Virus record (IMG/VR): IMGVR_UViG_2778261056_000004
Coordinates: 1-42,285 of that record
Strand: one strand, 5' to 3'
DNA: 42,285 nt
DNA from: a virus
Taxonomy: Duplodnaviria > Heunggongvirae > Uroviricota > Caudoviricetes
The position numbers were made by a program, and so were the translations under genes. Below the pieces are notes generated by a model that saw only the letters and a program-made list of their open reading frames with translations, did not search any database and had not been told where the DNA came from. This document shows positions 31,099 to 35,138 of the stretch, piece by piece (positions within the stretch are counted from its first letter, which is position 1; each line of letters begins with the position of its first letter).

Positions 31099-32433
31099 TC
31101 ACGCATTGACGGCCCCCAGCATGCTGTTGAAGAGACCACCAGCGGTCGTGATAATTTCACTCGTCGGCATACGTTCGAGCCACAGCTGGTTGATATTGGC
31201 TTTCAGCTTGTTCTGTTGTGAAACAGGTAGAGCGTCAGCCCCTTCAATCTGGTTAAACACCAGGCCAACCTCAAGAGGCCAAACGCGCGATTCGTTTAAC
31301 GCCTTGTCCTTTGATTCCTGCGTCTCACGGACATGGGCGCGGATCCCCCGAATATTTGACCATTTGGCTTTATCCAGGCTTTCCATGGTCGCGATGAATT
31401 CACTGTGGTTAATGCCGTATTCTTTCGCAGACTCAACGGCAACCGTGCGTAACCGCTCTGACATGTCTTGTTTCACGTCATCGCTATCAAAGGGCAATGT
31501 TTCCAGCCATGCATTAACACCCACCAGGATGCTCTCGCTGATCAGCTTTTTCGCTCTGTCGATCGTCAGCGGTGAAACATTGGTAAATTCAGGGTTCTCC
31601 AAAGAGTCGGCAGCCCAGGTATGACCAAACTTTGACTCGCTGAAGGTGTACTCATCTTTCTCGCCGAACGCCGCGACAACACAGGCCCAAGCCTCTACAC
31701 CACTGGTATCCAGAATGGCTTTTTGGGTTAATGGCAGTTCTGCCTCTGATTTCTCCGGCACTACCTCAGCGTCCAGCTCCGGCGCCGCATCAGTTTGCTT
31801 TCTTCCCACTGCAAACTGGGCCAGCGACATCGAAGCACGGCCTTTGGCCTCCAGGTCGGTGCGGTTGATGTAACTGAAACGTTCACCCCGCCATGTTTTG
31901 TCGAAGACCACGATAGCGCCAGCAAAAAATGCGCTGGTGGGTTGCTGCTTTTCGTCTTTCGGCACGAACCATGTAGGAAGATCGAAACCAATTCGGCCAC
32001 GGATGAATGTGACGTGATCTGCTTCTTCCGGCCACCACGTCTCACTCGTCGCAGACTTAATGAGAAAAACGTACCGACCACCCTTTTCTCGCATTGCCAT
32101 AGCGTGGTTAATGATGTGGGTCATTCCGGTAACGGCCTGCTTGTCGTGGTACTGAGAGCGGCTGTAAGGCGGGTTGCCAAACCCGGCACCACCGAGCTCT
32201 GCCAGACGCTCTGACCAATCCTGCGTCAGGGCATTATCTTCAGCCGTGTACCATGCTGGGCACTTCGCGTTACTGTCGTCGGCAAAAAGGTCCAACACCA
32301 GAGGGCCGAACATCGCATTGATACCCCAAAACAACAGATCCGGAGTACGCCATTGATCGCCGACCTCTTTCAACTCGTGGGCTGGTCTTGAACGCAGTTC
32401 AGCCAACGCCCGGCAGTATTTATTTTCATTCAT
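31099..32433 (-). CDS. phage Dam-like N6-adenine DNA methyltransferase with long C-terminal extension of unknown function
   Basis: GFGNPPYSR motif in an N-terminal domain of about 200 aa; further 240 aa without recognised motifs; start overlaps O-like stop. Confidence 0.7.
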   Translation of the reverse strand: MNENKYCRALAELRSRPAHELKEVGDQWRTPDLLFWGINAMFGPLVLDLFADDSNAKCPAWYTAEDNALTQDWSERLAELGGAGFGNPPYSRSQYHDKQAVTGMTHIINHAMAMREKGGRYVFLIKSATSETWWPEEADHVTFIRGRIGFDLPTWFVPKDEKQQPTSAFFAGAIVVFDKTWRGERFSYINRTDLEAKGRASMSLAQFAVGRKQTDAAPELDAEVVPEKSEAELPLTQKAILDTSGVEAWACVVAAFGEKDEYTFSESKFGHTWAADSLENPEFTNVSPLTIDRAKKLISESILVGVNAWLETLPFDSDDVKQDMSERLRTVAVESAKEYGINHSEFIATMESLDKAKWSNIRGIRAHVRETQESKDKALNESRVWPLEVGLVFNQIEGADALPVSQQNKLKANINQLWLERMPTSEIITTAGGLFNSMLGAVNA

Positions 32434-33284
32434 CCTCTGAACCCCTCTGGAATCTTGGTATCAACCGGACCGAACTTCATCGGATCGTGTTTCTTTTCAC
32501 CCCAGCTTTCACGCGGTGGACGCCCCTTCTTGTCCCAACGGATCCCGCTTTGCAGATAACCCTCAAACTTTTTCGGGCCAAATAGCGTTTCAGGGCGCAT
32601 GTACTGGTACTGCACGTCATTGCCGTTCCAGTGCTCATGCTTAAGGTCAATCACCAGCTGTAACTCGCCAACGGTGTAACCTTCACGCAAACGAGCACGG
32701 ATGTTTTCCAGAGAAGTTTTTGATTTTTGGTATCGTGAGCCGCTAACCAGGTTCAGATGATTCAGAACCAGGATGGCGTTATCGGTGATCGTCACTTCAA
32801 GGTCTGGTTGCTGCGCAACCGGACAAGAAGGTTTTTTAACTGATGGATCAGTAGTTGTATTTACTGACGGATCCCCCCCAGATTCTGACGGGTGAAAACT
32901 GCCTTTCTCATCGTTTTTTGATGCCTCAGATTTTGACGCGTCGGTTTTTGAGGCATCAGATTTTGATGCGTCAGAATCTGACAGGTGAGAAAAGGCAGCA
33001 GCCTGCAATTTCGCAACATTGAGCTGGTAAACGTTCGATGCATTTCGGTTGCCTTTACGGCGCTGCTGGCGGGTTAACCAACCATCTTTTTCCAGCTGAG
33101 ATATGGCTGTGCGAACCGTGCTCTCACCAGCACCAATCTGGCGCGCGATGGTAGCGATGGAAGGCCAGCTAACCCCTTCATCACTGCTGAAGTCTGCCAG
33201 ACGCGCCATGATGGCAACGCTGGATAGCTTCATGCCAGAAGCGGCACAAGCATCCCAAACGTAACCCGTTAATTTAGTGCTCAT
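32430..33284 (-). CDS. replication initiation protein (O-like; N-terminal HTH, conserved phage C-terminal domain)
   Basis: N-terminal YVWDA...SWPSIATIARQIGAGESTVRTAISQLEKDGWL winged-helix pattern; central acidic DASK repeats; C-terminal LNHLN...YMRPETLFG; RBS AAAGGA. Confidence 0.6.
   Translation of the reverse strand: MSTKLTGYVWDACAASGMKLSSVAIMARLADFSSDEGVSWPSIATIARQIGAGESTVRTAISQLEKDGWLTRQQRRKGNRNASNVYQLNVAKLQAAAFSHLSDSDASKSDASKTDASKSEASKNDEKGSFHPSESGGDPSVNTTTDPSVKKPSCPVAQQPDLEVTITDNAILVLNHLNLVSGSRYQKSKTSLENIRARLREGYTVGELQLVIDLKHEHWNGNDVQYQYMRPETLFGPKKFEGYLQSGIRWDKKGRPPRESWGEKKHDPMKFGPVDTKIPEGFRG
32880..32990. repeat. tandem about 15-bp iteron-like repeats inside the replication initiator gene (candidate origin)
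   Basis: About five imperfect copies of TCAGATTTTGACGCG (plus strand), encoding SDASK repeats; lambda ori iterons also lie within O. Confidence 0.45.
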
Positions 33285-33293
33285 GGTCGTCCT

Positions 33294-33620
33294 TTAACTC
33301 TGTAAACTTGCGCTTGAATTGTTCGAGCGGGCTGAAACATTCGTGGTCATATCCATCCCGCAGGTAGATAACTCGTTGAGTCTCTGGTTCCCACCTGATA
33401 ACCCGAACGGGGATCCCTCTGTGGTCTTTGAACCTTCGGTTAACTTCGCGCATAAGCGTTTCGCCTTCCTGTAGTAAACCCCCACAATTGCGACCGCCCG
33501 ACTGTGGTTACATGGCACCCAGCGGTTTGCTATTCTGCGTTCATACCGAAACAACGGAGCGCCCGGTACCGGGATCATCCTGAGTTGCGGTAAACGGTTA
33601 AAAGCCGTTAAACTGGTCAT
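33294..33620 (-). CDS. questionable small ORF between the CII-like and O-like genes
   Basis: ATG at 33620 with GGAGAA 9 nt upstream; low-complexity Arg/Ser-rich product; could be non-coding. Confidence 0.2.
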   Translation of the reverse strand: MTSLTAFNRLPQLRMIPVPGAPLFRYERRIANRWVPCNHSRAVAIVGVYYRKAKRLCAKLTEGSKTTEGSPFGLSGGNQRLNELSTCGMDMTTNVSARSNNSSASLQS

Positions 33621-33625
33621 GCGGA

Positions 33626-34231
33626 TTACTTCTCCATACAAGATTTGTCTGCCACGACGCCCGGAGCTGCACACTCGCGGGCGTCACCTTTTTCCGGCGC
33701 ACAAAACACACGGAAAAGCAGCGTCAAATGTTCCTGCCACTTAGCCATCACCTGATAGCTGTTCTCTTCGATCTGGGCGCGTTCCTGAGCATCAATAACG
33801 CCGTCAGCGGTAGCTTTACGAACGTATTGCGAATGCCTGCCGATCCACTCAACTGACTCCATGAGACGCTGGTTGATATCGCCGTTCTCAATATCTTCAA
33901 CATCAGCCAATGGCACAAACACACCGTTCGAGTGACGTGCAATAGCATTCGCTATGTGGTTTGAACCACCAGCACGCTGAAGCACCATCGCCCAACCGAG
34001 CGGGAAGATCTGATCACCATCGGTACGCAGCCGGTTAAACAGCGCGTTCTCGGTCACACCCAACCACTCAGCAGCTTCGGAATACCCGCCAGGAAGCTCG
34101 GTGATCGTTTTTTTGATTGCGGCCACCAGCCAGGCTGGCTGCTTATCTACTTTCCATTCAGGTTCTATACCCACGGCTAGGTCCTCCCTTCTGTGGTTAT
34201 TTCTGATCGTTAGGCGCTGTATTCTTGCCAT
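33626..34231 (-). CDS. CII/YdaT-like HTH regulator (start uncertain, 34258 or 34231)
   Basis: Internal HTH-like segment ELPGGYSEAAEWLGVTENALFNRLR; position directly downstream of the Cro-like gene. Confidence 0.35.
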   Translation of the reverse strand: MARIQRLTIRNNHRREDLAVGIEPEWKVDKQPAWLVAAIKKTITELPGGYSEAAEWLGVTENALFNRLRTDGDQIFPLGWAMVLQRAGGSNHIANAIARHSNGVFVPLADVEDIENGDINQRLMESVEWIGRHSQYVRKATADGVIDAQERAQIEENSYQVMAKWQEHLTLLFRVFCAPEKGDARECAAPGVVADKSCMEK

Positions 34232-34412
34232 AACGTTCTGGGTTGAATTCCAGTTCACCAGCAGTTCGATACGCAGCTTCAGCAGCTCGTCCTTTAGGGA
34301 TTAAGCGTCCGGGGCGATTACGCCACTGGTAAACGGCCTCACTGGTGATGCCAAAAAATTCGGCAACTTTCTCAGTGCTGCCGAAATGTTGTTCAATCTC
34401 GTCGGTTGTCAT
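34197..34412 (-). CDS. Cro-like HTH repressor
   Basis: 71 aa, HTH EKVAEFFGITSEAVYQWRN; strong RBS TAAGGAGG; divergent from cI. Confidence 0.65.
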   Translation of the reverse strand: MTTDEIEQHFGSTEKVAEFFGITSEAVYQWRNRPGRLIPKGRAAEAAYRTAGELEFNPERYGKNTAPNDQK

Positions 34413-34511: not shown

Positions 34512-35138
34512 ATGGAAACAGTTGGTCAGCGCATTAAAGCCCTACGCAGGGTTACAAAAACCTCTCAAAAAGAACTGGGTAAGTTCTGCGGAGTGAGTGA
34601 CGTAGCGGTGGGTTATTGGGAAAAGGATGTGAATATCCCAAACGGAGAATCGCTGGTTAAGCTGGCTAAATTCTTCAATACATCAATAGATTACATTCTT
34701 TACGGCACTGAATTTGAAGGGACCCTCATAACTAAAATGAGGCGTGTGCCCGTGATTTCTTGGGTTCAAGCTGGGCAGTTTACGGAATGTAAGGCCGCTG
34801 ATTTATTCAGTGATGTCGATAAATGGGTTGAAACCTCACTACGTATTGGGGATAGCTCGTTCGCTTTAGAGGTCAAAGGGGATTCAATGACCAATCCAAA
34901 TGGCCTCCCAACAATTCCTGAAGGGGCAACCGTTATTGTCGATCCAGATGCCGAACCCCTTCATGGCAAGATTGTTGTTGCGCGTATTGATGGCACTAAC
35001 GAAGCGACTGTTAAAAAACTGGTCATTGATGGCCCACAAAAATTTTTAGTCCCACTAAATCCTCGCTACCCCAACATCCCGATCAATGGTAACTGCCTCA
35101 TTATTGGAGTAGTTAAAGGCGTTCAATACGAACTCTAA
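34512..35138 (+). CDS. CI-like prophage repressor, LexA-like (HTH plus peptidase S24 autocleavage domain)
   Basis: N-terminal HTH QKELGKFCGVSDVAVGYWE; Ala-Gly site (QAGQF), GDSM Ser and VKKL Lys as in LexA/lambda CI. Confidence 0.85.
   Translation: METVGQRIKALRRVTKTSQKELGKFCGVSDVAVGYWEKDVNIPNGESLVKLAKFFNTSIDYILYGTEFEGTLITKMRRVPVISWVQAGQFTECKAADLFSDVDKWVETSLRIGDSSFALEVKGDSMTNPNGLPTIPEGATVIVDPDAEPLHGKIVVARIDGTNEATVKKLVIDGPQKFLVPLNPRYPNIPINGNCLIIGVVKGVQYEL

What the first reader, a model, noticed from the sequence alone, without database searches (positions are those of the whole stretch)
33285..33625. Unusually long interval between the CII-like and O-like genes
About 340 bp separate the two genes, containing only a questionable Arg/Ser-rich ORF with a GGAGAA RBS. 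It may be a regulatory/terminator region or a small gene.
Basis: seen in the sequence. Interest (0 to 1): 0.25.

Follow-up and report, generated by a model that had tools for sequence, protein, structure and literature searches.

The report
Two overlapping small genes, not a gap
The supposed 340-bp gap between the phage's CII-like and O-like genes holds two small protein genes read in different frames of the same DNA, a relative of the e14 prophage cell-division inhibitor YmfM and a DUF4222 protein, plus the promoter of a small antisense RNA; all three have known counterparts in E. coli K-12.

Summary
The coordinates are right: 341 bp (33285-33625) lie between the CII/YmfL-like stop and the O-like ATG, all on the minus strand. 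The interval is not intergenic.

- **ORF A (33294-33620, 108 aa).** It is a positional homologue of e14 YmfM, a distant one by sequence. Its first ~55 codons are under purifying selection (dN/dS 0.24) and fold confidently. Its tail is disordered and shows no amino-acid constraint.
- **ORF B (33274-33453, 59 aa).** It matches Pfam DUF4222 (E 2.7e-18) and has dN/dS 0.10. It lies in the -1 frame inside ORF A's tail.
- **Overlap.** Frame A is open across DUF4222 in all 110 overlapped loci. About 9% per sequence would be expected by chance, and 0 of 23 stand-alone DUF4222 genes have it open. Frame A nearly always stops 9 nt before the O-like ATG.
- **Antisense RNA.** The CII-proximal edge carries the conserved candidate promoter of a ~76-nt plus-strand RNA (33618-33693). 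Its terminator shows compensatory changes. It matches e14 ECS003, which has been seen on Northern blots.

Verdict: ordinary members of known families. The side interest is a conserved, undescribed dual-coding overlap, which leaves open which product causes the published ymfM (SfiC) filamentation.

The parts
33626..34174 (-). CII-like / YmfL-family regulator gene. It is the upstream flank of the interval, with a GTG start preceded by GGGAGG.
   Evidence: NCBIfam NF041471 YmfL E 6.7e-56; Pfam Phage_CP76 E 1.6e-9; phrog_101 'CII-like transcriptional activator' E 1.6e-60. Coordinates checked.
33630..33635 (-). Shine-Dalgarno GGAGAA of ORF A, inside the 3' end of the YmfL-like gene and 9 nt from the ATG.
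   Evidence: Sequence read.
33294..33620 (-). ORF A, YmfM-like, 108 aa.
   Evidence: phrog_1170 E 2.2e-16. Annotated as a 108-112 aa CDS in phages Eeyore, LLS, 720R4 ('YmfM'), mEp390 and SfIV. 32 protein clusters of homologues. Same position and frame relation as e14 ymfM.
33456..33620 (-). ORF A codons 1-55, the conserved folded N-domain (three strands plus a helix).
   Evidence: dN/dS 0.24 in frame A against 0.98 and 1.32 in the other frames, on 24 sequences under 97% identity. AlphaFold pLDDT 86-91 for residues ~9-62. Stand-alone proteins of 58-63 aa in L036, L037, L040, L234 and L235. 33% identity to the e14 YmfM N-half, pairwise E 5e-6.
33294..33455 (-). ORF A tail (codons 56-108 plus the stop), read in the +1 frame across DUF4222. 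It is disordered and its sequence is unconstrained, but the frame is kept open.
   Evidence: Frame A dN/dS is 1.9, about the same as the third frame at 2.1. pLDDT is about 40. The frame is open in 110 of 110 overlapped loci against an expected 0.089 per sequence. No GTR Val codon among 102 placed before an A-starting codon, against 18 of 65 before C/T (Fisher 8e-9). In 36 of 42 representative loci the stop lies 9 nt before the next gene's start.
33464..33469 (-). Shine-Dalgarno GGAAGG of DUF4222 (GGAGG in most relatives), 10 nt from its ATG.
33274..33453 (-). ORF B, DUF4222 protein, 59 aa, in the -1 frame relative to ORF A. Its stop lies 8 nt inside the O-like gene.
   Evidence: Pfam PF13973 E 2.7e-18, 65.7 bits against cut-off 27; phrog_1343 E 4.5e-33. 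dN/dS 0.10 with dS 1.14. PGAP annotates the homologous place as 'DUF4222 domain-containing protein' in E. coli, including K-12 e14; matches were found in 2084 genomes. AlphaFold pLDDT 82.8, a small beta-barrel.
32430..33284 (-). O-like replication initiator gene. It is the downstream flank and lies in the same reading frame as ORF A.
   Evidence: Pfam Phg_2220_C E 5.1e-22, HTH_36, DnaD_N; phrog_428 and phrog_391 'replication initiation'. Frame relation.
33585..33614 (+). Candidate promoter of the antisense RNA: -35 TTGCGG (33585-33590), 18-nt spacer, -10 TAAACT (33609-33614).
   Evidence: Only 7 of 12 consensus matches, so the scanner did not call it. The hexamers are frozen at synonymous sites of ORF A: CCG-CAA in 23 of 23 and AGT-TTA in 20 of 20 sequences, while the adjacent Leu13 and Arg14 codons vary freely. 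The same elements occur in e14. The e14 ECS003 reads begin at the homologous CATGCG.
33618..33693 (+). Predicted ~76-nt cis-antisense RNA, the counterpart of e14 ECS003 and placed like lambda oop. It is complementary to ORF A's start codon and SD and to the last 68 nt of the YmfL-like gene.
   Evidence: Global alignment to the published ECS003 sequence gives z 12.7 against shuffles. MFE -27.3 kcal/mol, z -4.4. ECS003 gave a Northern band of about 70 nt in E. coli K-12 (PMC3175480).
33656..33685 (+). Terminator hairpin of the antisense RNA (11 bp with one bulge), followed by ACCTTTTTCC.
   Evidence: 100% of 572 cells are paired across 52 distinct sequences. Five pairs carry compensatory double changes; 0 of 500 shuffles reach this and the slid controls show almost none. 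There are 25 G.U cells (22 at one pair, 3 at another) on the plus strand, which would be C.A mismatches on the sense strand.

Best explanation
The interval is a densely packed part of the prophage's early rightward operon: PR at 34468-34440, then cro-like, YmfL/CII-like, ORF A with ORF B nested in it, and the O-like gene.

**Shown here**
1. ORF A (YmfM-like) starts 5 nt after the YmfL-like stop. Its first ~55 codons encode a conserved, folded small domain.
2. ORF B (DUF4222) starts 167 nt into ORF A, in the -1 frame, with its own SD. It is the frame under strong purifying selection over the shared 160 nt.
3. ORF A's frame is nevertheless kept free of stop codons across DUF4222. It ends 9 nt before the O-like ATG, within or next to that gene's likely ribosome-binding region, and DUF4222 ends 8 nt after that ATG.
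4. A terminator hairpin with covariation on the opposite strand marks a ~76-nt antisense RNA. A promoter-like pair of hexamers frozen at synonymous sites lies upstream of it. The RNA covers ORF A's ribosome-binding site and the 3' end of the YmfL-like gene.

**Inferred**
- The genes are expressed when the S24-peptidase CI-like repressor is cleaved during SOS.
- By homology with e14 ymfM (SfiC), the locus blocks FtsZ-ring formation and causes filamentation on induction.
- The antisense RNA, abundant in uninduced K-12 as ECS003, keeps the toxic ORF A silent in lysogens by masking its RBS. As lambda oop does for cII, it may also lower CII-like expression.
- ORF A's tail is selected for being translated, not for its sequence. 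It would deliver ribosomes to the O-like start, or provide a disordered appendage.
For: **Gene content**
- Pfam, PHROG and NCBIfam hits.
- Frame-specific dN/dS.
- AlphaFold: ORF A residues 9-62 at pLDDT 86-91 with a tail near 40; DUF4222 at 82.8.

**Two separate genes**
- In L036, L037, L234 and L235 a 58-63 aa YmfM-N gene and a 57-59 aa DUF4222 gene are separated by an antirepressor gene.

**Frame kept open**
- All 110 overlapped loci are open, including 30 of 30 complete loci in the unbiased genome set.
- Synonymous resampling gives a mean P(open) of 0.089. The product over 7 clusters under 75% nucleotide identity is 10^-7.5.
- All 23 stand-alone DUF4222 genes have 1-7 stops in that frame.
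- Codon avoidance is specific to the risky contexts.
- Other N-domain subtypes (mEp390, Klebsiella phages, e14) show the same layout.
- The position of the frame-A stop is conserved.

**Antisense RNA**
- Covariation in the terminator, the fold, frozen synonymous sites at the two hexamers, the e14 sequence, and the published ECS003 sequence and Northern blot.

**Function**
- Ansari et al. (bioRxiv 10.1101/2020.11.19.390815) found that pBAD-ymfM causes filamentation and loss of Z rings, and that ymfM contributes to SOS filamentation.
- Expression-library screens in K-12 and UTI89 pick out the same locus.
- The CI-like repressor carries a Peptidase_S24 domain.
Against: - No expression data exist for this window, so translation of either frame and transcription of the antisense RNA are inferred.
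- The N-domain is only 33% identical to e14 YmfM. Against PHROG profiles it is marginal when searched alone (E 0.0023 and 0.1). Most of the phrog_1170 score comes from the tail, which is conserved at the DNA level because of DUF4222.
- RefSeq/PGAP does not annotate ORF A at all.
- The published ymfM constructs also carry 53 of the 59 DUF4222 codons. This is my inference from the coordinates. The phenotype is therefore not unambiguously assigned to ORF A.
- The candidate antisense promoter matches the sigma-70 consensus poorly (7 of 12). The -10 lies only 3-4 nt from the first base of the ECS003 reads.
- Some other ORF A codons are also frozen, so frozen synonymous sites are not unique to the promoter hexamers.
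- Why frame A must stay open is not explained by any test made here.
Confidence: 0.8

Rival explanations
1. Only DUF4222 is a gene, as RefSeq/PGAP annotates. ORF A would be a spurious long ORF, and the 170 bp upstream of DUF4222 would be non-coding DNA conserved for nucleic-acid reasons such as the antisense promoter.
For: PGAP annotates only DUF4222 at the homologous place in E. coli, leaving about 175 bp unannotated in K-12. ORF A has no Pfam or NCBIfam family. Part of the upstream stretch does carry nucleotide-level constraints.
Against: dN/dS is 0.24 in frame A only. Amino-acid replacements are conservative, and 58-63 aa stand-alone homologues are called as genes elsewhere. AlphaFold predicts the fold confidently from a 31-sequence alignment. 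ORF A has its own SD, and its start sits 5 nt after, or overlaps, the YmfL stop. The frame is kept open for another 53 codons against expectation.
Confidence: 0.06
2. Both genes are real, but the active cell-division inhibitor of ymfM-type loci (SfiC) is the DUF4222 protein, or needs it, rather than the annotated YmfM polypeptide.
For: The cloned ymfM ORF contains the DUF4222 start and 53 of its 59 codons, and a ymfM deletion removes most of DUF4222; both points are inferred from the coordinates. The paper never mentions the second frame. DUF4222 is far better conserved than the YmfM N-half: 80% identity between this window and e14 against 33%. It has a compact protein-binding type of fold.
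Against: In pBAD24, ORF A is driven by the vector's strong SD and ATG. The internal e14 DUF4222 start is TTG with a weak SD, and the product would be C-terminally altered (sequence; inference). DUF4222 is always coupled to the replication gene, even when separated from YmfM-N. That suggests a replication- or transcription-linked role.
Confidence: 0.2
3. ORF A works only as its ~56-aa N-domain. The long open tail would be a historical accident of joining the YmfL/YmfM module to the DUF4222/O module, without selective value.
For: The tail shows no amino-acid constraint and is predicted disordered. Stand-alone forms lack it.
Against: Synonymous sites of DUF4222 are close to saturated (dS 1.14), yet no stop has arisen in frame A in any of 110 loci. 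Codon choice avoids stops only in the risky contexts. Stand-alone DUF4222 genes carry 1-7 stops in that frame. The frame-A stop is held at a fixed distance from the next start by rare NTA codons.
Confidence: 0.1
4. The interval is a non-coding regulatory or terminator spacer on the sense strand.
For: It is much longer than the 32-bp cII-O spacer of lambda.
Against: Two frames are under purifying selection. The scan found no terminator-like site on the minus strand inside the interval. There is no Rfam match and no notable repeats.
Confidence: 0.02
5. A programmed -1 ribosomal frameshift fuses the YmfM N-domain to DUF4222.
For: DUF4222 lies in the -1 frame of ORF A. Fused proteins exist in databases (P0005, P0144).
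Against: No conserved X XXY YYZ heptamer is present in frame A. The DUF4222 frame has a stop 57 nt upstream of its ATG (48, 18 or 9 nt in four of 23 representatives). DUF4222 has its own conserved SD and start. The database fusions join at different points, as expected of indels or sequencing errors.
Confidence: 0.02

Closest known systems
ymfM (b1148, SfiC) of the E. coli K-12 e14 prophage
   Same: It holds the same place, directly after ymfL and before the replication gene in the early operon. It has about the same length (112 against 108 aa) and the same nested DUF4222 in the -1 frame. The N-terminal halves align at 33% identity, and both match phrog_1170. The e14 gene causes SOS-linked filamentation and loss of Z rings.
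   Different: The N-domain belongs to a different, distantly related subtype: 'RLPQLRMIPVPG..FRYERR..NRWVPCNHSRA' here against 'RRSQLIALPVPG..VEYCYAV..THSFAEW' in e14. The DUF4222 start is ATG with a good SD here, but TTG in e14. Function in this phage is untested.
DUF4222 (Pfam PF13973) small prophage proteins
   Same: ORF B matches the full length of the model well above the gathering score. It is 80% identical to the e14 copy WP_001250269.1. As elsewhere, its stop overlaps the start of the replication gene.
ECS003, a cis-antisense sRNA of e14 (Shinhara et al. 2011, PMC3175480)
   Same: The position is homologous, the hairpin is identical (GACGCCCGGAGCTGCACACTCGCGGGCGTC), the 5' end is the same (CATGCG) and the size is similar (76 nt predicted here, ~70-nt Northern band there).
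   Different: The 35 nt between the 5' end and the hairpin differ. The U-tract is better here (CCTTTTT against TTACTTTCT). Expression was not measured for this phage.
oop RNA of phage lambda
   Same: Both are short antisense RNAs that start at the 5' edge of the gene following cII and end at an intrinsic terminator inside the 3' end of the cII-type gene. The sizes are similar (77 against ~76 nt).
   Different: Sequence similarity is not convincing (alignment z 3.3). The gene after the cII-type gene is O in lambda and a YmfM-like gene here. This RNA also covers that gene's SD and AUG, as type I antitoxin RNAs such as SymR do (from my own knowledge), whereas oop ends short of O's start.
Small prophage cell-division inhibitors (lambda Kil, Rac KilR, Qin DicB)
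   Same: They are small early-operon proteins that block division on induction, as listed.

Membership tests
YmfM / SfiC (e14) family | Gene lies directly downstream of a YmfL-family gene and upstream of the replication gene in the early operon of a lambdoid prophage | tested here: met
   The upstream YmfL-family gene has NCBIfam E 6.7e-56 and the downstream gene is O-like. The order is the same in e14.
YmfM / SfiC (e14) family | Sequence similarity to e14 YmfM outside the part that is conserved merely because DUF4222 overlaps it | tested here: met
   N-halves: 33% identity over 63 aa, pairwise BLASTP E 5e-6. The support is weak: phrog_20047 E 0.0023 and phrog_1170 E 0.1 with the N-half alone.
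YmfM / SfiC (e14) family | Expression causes filamentation through loss of FtsZ rings, independent of SulA, SlmA and MinC | not testable with these tools
   Known only for e14, and there the construct also carries most of DUF4222.
YmfM / SfiC (e14) family | SOS-inducible through the prophage's own repressor | not testable with these tools
   Consistent: the CI-like repressor at 34512-35138 has HTH_3 and Peptidase_S24 domains, and a PR-like promoter lies at 34468-34440.
DUF4222 (PF13973) | Score above Pfam's gathering threshold over the full model | tested here: met
   65.7 bits against cut-off 27, model positions 4-52 of 53.
ECS003-type antisense RNA | Sequence homologous to the published ECS003 RNA at the homologous position | tested here: met
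   Alignment z 12.7 against shuffles, with an identical 30-nt hairpin and the same 5' hexamer.
ECS003-type antisense RNA | Intrinsic terminator that works on the antisense strand | tested here: met
   An 11-bp stem, 100% paired in 52 sequences, with 5 covarying pairs. Its G.U pairs are valid only on the plus strand, and a U-tract follows.
ECS003-type antisense RNA | Sigma-70 promoter just upstream of the 5' end | tested here: inconclusive
   TTGCGG-18-TAAACT matches only 7 of 12 consensus positions and was not called by the scanner. Both hexamers are invariant at synonymous positions.
ECS003-type antisense RNA | The RNA accumulates in cells | not testable with these tools
   A Northern band of ~70 nt was reported for e14 only.
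lambda oop RNA | Sequence homology to lambda oop | tested here: not met
   Global alignment z is 3.3, explained by the shared GC-rich stem plus T-run layout. The resemblance is one of layout, not of family membership.
Programmed -1 frameshift cassette | Conserved slippery heptamer X XXY YYZ in the upstream frame, with the downstream frame open from that point | tested here: not met
   No conserved heptamer. The DUF4222 frame has a stop 57 nt upstream of its ATG in 19 of 23 representatives, and 9-48 nt upstream in the other four.
Sense-strand intrinsic terminator or non-coding spacer | GC-rich hairpin plus T-run on the minus strand within 33285-33625, and no coding signal | tested here: not met
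   No such site in the scan. Two frames are under purifying selection.
Anti-phage defence systems (PADLOC) | Match to a PADLOC model | tested here: not met
   No family matched either protein at E up to 1.

The most novel reading that the evidence does not exclude
The YmfM/DUF4222 overlap may be a functional dual-coding device conserved across Enterobacterales prophages, e14 included. The division-inhibitor ORF would be kept open for ~53 codons in the +1 frame of DUF4222 because it has to be translated right up to the replication gene's ribosome-binding site, not for the peptide it encodes. That could set the relative output of YmfM, DUF4222 and the O-like protein, with the ECS003-like antisense RNA on ORF A's RBS acting as the switch. 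As a corollary, the product responsible for the classical SfiC phenotype has not actually been assigned, because every published ymfM construct and deletion also affects DUF4222.
Probability: 0.35. Interest if true: 0.6.

Novelty: new member of a known kind. Interest (0 to 1): 0.38.

Why it matters
- **For this window.** The result removes an apparent anomaly. The 'gap' is two small genes plus an antisense-RNA promoter, all with counterparts in E. coli K-12 e14.
- **Annotation conflict.** RefSeq/PGAP calls only DUF4222, while phage annotation pipelines and the K-12 reference call only the 108-112 aa ORF. The selection data indicate that both are real.
- **Consequence for published work.** Work on ymfM (SfiC), which is now also used as a tool to make filamentous uropathogenic E. 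coli, has not separated the two reading frames.
- **Overlapping genes.** This is a clean natural case of a long out-of-frame overlap in which one frame is constrained for its sequence and the other only for staying open. Such cases are rarely documented in bacteria and phages with comparable statistical support.

Tried and rejected
- **Rfam.** The gathering search on the whole window and the permissive search on 33000-34000 found nothing in or near the interval.
- **Promoter/terminator scan.** It found nothing inside the interval. It also missed the antisense terminator (14 unpaired bases after the outer 8-bp stem, or a one-base bulge if three inner pairs are counted) and the weak promoter.
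- **Repeats.** Only two short two-copy chance matches in 33150-33750.
- **-1 frameshifting.** No slippery site.
- **PADLOC.** No hit for either protein.
- **PDB sequence search with the DUF4222 profile.** Nothing.
- **Literature.** 'DUF4222' occurs in 5 papers and never in a title or abstract; I did not open them. A search combining ymfM with 'overlapping' and 'small protein' turned up nothing describing the overlap. Mehta et al. 2004 on e14 is not held in the library.
- **e14-type loci from viral contigs.** They were too similar to one another to add independent lineages. They do show that closely related copies differ by changes that are silent in DUF4222 and alter the ORF A tail.
- **Sampling caveat.** The 80 viral loci were the best-scoring hits to the full-length ORF A and could favour open tails. 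The unbiased genome set (30 of 30 open) and the context-specific codon test do not share this bias.

Full report
**1. The observation**

All genes in this part of the window are on the minus strand.
- A CI-like repressor gene (34512-35138, plus strand; HTH_3 and Peptidase_S24 domains) faces the operon.
- A PR-like promoter lies at 34468-34440.
- The operon then runs: cro-like gene (34197-34412), CII-like gene of the YmfL family (33626-34174; NCBIfam E 6.7e-56), O-like replication gene (32430-33284).

In lambda the cII-O spacer is 32 bp.

**2. ORF B is a DUF4222 gene**

- It matches Pfam PF13973 at 65.7 bits (cut-off 27; E 2.7e-18) and phrog_1343 at E 4.5e-33.
- At least 127 protein clusters of homologues exist, many named DUF4222 by NCBI.
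- RefSeq annotates the homologous place as 'DUF4222 domain-containing protein' in E. coli, including the e14 prophage of K-12. Matches were found in 2084 genomes.
- On 24 related sequences under 97% identity, dN/dS in this frame is 0.10 with dS 1.14.
- It has its own SD (GGAAGG here, GGAGG in most relatives) 9-10 nt before an ATG or GTG.

**3. ORF A is also a gene, at least in its first half**

- Phage annotators call it in Eeyore (99% identical DNA), LLS, Flotzy, 720R4 ('YmfM'), mEp390 and SfIV.
- Homologues share a well-conserved N-terminal ~55 residues, with conservative replacements, and a poorly conserved tail.
- Over codons 1-55, dN/dS is 0.24 in frame A and 0.98 and 1.32 in the other two frames.
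- In some prophages the N-domain is a stand-alone gene of 58-63 aa. There it is followed by an antirepressor gene, a separate DUF4222 gene and then the O-like gene (L036, L037, L234, L235). It also occurs with no DUF4222 match in the short stretch of contig held downstream (L039-L041).
- The family is small: 22 clusters at 50% identity among 1.84 billion representatives, with lengths of either 53-66 or 104-113 aa, plus four outliers of 120, 137, 142 and 720 aa.

**4. The overlap**

I fetched 116 related loci. Wherever DUF4222 directly follows, the layout is the same:
- DUF4222 starts at nucleotide +167 of ORF A, in the -1 frame.
- ORF A runs on for about 53 more codons across it.

Within the overlap, frame A has dN/dS 1.9, the same as the non-coding third frame at 2.1. 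The tail therefore has no detectable amino-acid constraint. The third codon positions of DUF4222, which are the second positions of frame A, vary freely.

Even so, the frame never closes.
- I resampled synonymous codons of each DUF4222 gene using the codon usage of the neighbouring O-like gene. This leaves frame A open in 3-25% of trials, mean 8.9%.
- All 110 loci are open, including 30 of 30 complete loci in the genome set, whose retrieval did not depend on the tail. The joint probability over 7 clusters under 75% nucleotide identity is about 10^-7.5, assuming independence. Near-saturated synonymous sites make that assumption reasonable.
- All 23 distinct stand-alone DUF4222 genes carry 1-7 stops in that frame.
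- The avoidance depends on context. Val before an A-starting codon is never GTG or GTA (0 of 102), against 18 of 65 before C or T (Fisher 8e-9). Leu before A is never NTG or NTA (0 of 25), against 38 of 44 before C. The stand-alone genes show no such avoidance.
- Other N-domain subtypes (e14, mEp390, Klebsiella phages) have the same layout.
- Frame A ends 9 nt before the next gene's ATG in 36 of 42 representative loci, and 3-6 nt before it in 4 more. The stop is built from rare NTA codons of DUF4222, and ORF A is in the same frame as the O-like gene. DUF4222 ends 8 nt after that ATG.

Programmed frameshifting is excluded.

**5. The antisense RNA**

On the plus strand, a hairpin at 33656-33685 followed by ACCTTTTTCC lies inside the 3' end of the YmfL-like gene.
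- Across 52 distinct sequences all 11 pairs are always formed. Five pairs show compensatory double changes, and neither the shuffles nor the slid controls approach this.
- There are 25 G.U cells (22 at one pair, 3 at another) on the plus strand. They would be C.A mismatches on the sense strand, so the structure is selected on the antisense strand.
- Upstream, TTGCGG (33585-33590) and TAAACT (33609-33614) are separated by 18 nt. They coincide with ORF A codons 11-12 and 3-4, which are frozen at synonymous positions while the neighbouring codons vary. The consensus match is poor (7 of 12).
- The same elements are present in e14.
- Shinhara et al. 2011 found ECS003 there. It was the most abundant of their cis-antisense candidates with a predicted sigma-70 promoter, and gave a ~70-nt Northern band. 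Its sequence starts at the homologous CATGCG and contains the identical hairpin.

The window's counterpart would span about 33618-33693. It is complementary to ORF A's AUG and SD and to the last 68 nt of the YmfL-like gene. Its placement resembles lambda oop, but the sequences are not convincingly related.

**6. How it most likely works**

*Shown:* the gene content, the frame relations, the selection pattern and the antisense terminator.

*Inferred:*
- The operon is de-repressed when the S24-type repressor is cleaved.
- The YmfM-like product inhibits Z-ring formation, as reported for e14 ymfM. I put this at roughly 0.45 for this phage, because the N-domains are only 33% identical.
- The published ymfM ORF clone also contains 53 of the 59 DUF4222 codons (coordinates), and the paper does not consider that frame.
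- The antisense RNA would keep ORF A untranslated in lysogens and might lower CII-like expression.
- Why frame A is kept open is unresolved. Its fixed stop, within or next to the likely ribosome-binding region of the O-like gene, favours translational coupling or control of ribosome traffic. A sequence-independent role for a disordered tail is the alternative.

**7. Comparison and novelty**

Each element belongs to a known kind: e14 ymfM/SfiC, Pfam DUF4222 and e14 ECS003. The 'long interval' is therefore explained and ordinary.

In the papers I could search, three points do not seem to have been described:
- the two genes form a conserved out-of-frame overlap;
- selection keeps the second frame open;
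- the annotation sources disagree about which gene exists.

I rate this a new member of a known kind, with moderate side interest.

Noticed in passing
window 2228-2453 (-), with ORF 636-2123 (-): A group II intron D1-D4-6 match (RF02005, 186.6 bits, E 7.5e-55) lies in this phage-like window. The adjacent 495-aa minus-strand ORF may be its reverse transcriptase/maturase.
   Followed up: no
window 32911-32975, inside the O-like gene: A tandem array with a 15/30-nt period (4 or 2 copies) encodes SDASKSDASKTDASKSEASK. It may be the origin iterons, by analogy with lambda ori inside O.
   Followed up: no
window 33282-33296; loci L006-L121: ORF A and the O-like gene are in the same reading frame, separated only by a stop and 3 codons. 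The stop is made from rare TTA or ATA codons of DUF4222 and sits 9 nt before the ATG in 36 of 42 representative loci.
   Followed up: partly
L241 (Escherichia phage 1720a-02): The A-type frame runs without a stop from a degenerate YmfM-like N-terminus across DUF4222 into the downstream antirepressor ORF, 387 aa in all.
   Followed up: no
P0005 (Enterobacter cloacae, 114 aa); P0144 (ENA metagenome, 102 aa): Database proteins fuse a YmfM-type N-part to a DUF4222 C-part at different junctions. They are most likely indels or sequencing errors rather than a regular product.
   Followed up: partly
L029 (Mangrovibacter plantisponsor); L227 (e14-type viral contig): DUF4222 is interrupted by a stop after 11 or 6 codons, while the overlapping YmfM-like frame stays intact at 113 or 112 aa.
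   Followed up: no
L033, L035 (Mangrovibacter phragmitis, Enterobacter pulveris): The two frames swap ends. DUF4222 stops early (...RVDA) and the YmfM-like frame takes over the '...HEH' C-terminus that overlaps the next gene's start.
   Followed up: no
window 33456-33620 (ORF A codons 24-26, 37-39, 46): Several further ORF A codons are frozen at synonymous positions (TTT-CGG-TAT, TGT-AAC-CAC, GTG in 22-23 of 23 sequences) without lying in the candidate antisense promoter. This is an unexplained nucleotide-level constraint.
   Followed up: no
L004 (E. coli K-12 e14), L003, L237-L240: Annotation sources disagree. PGAP and one Klebsiella phage record call only DUF4222. The K-12 reference (from my own knowledge; not checked here) and most phage records call only the 108-112 aa ORF. 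None annotates both.
   Followed up: yes
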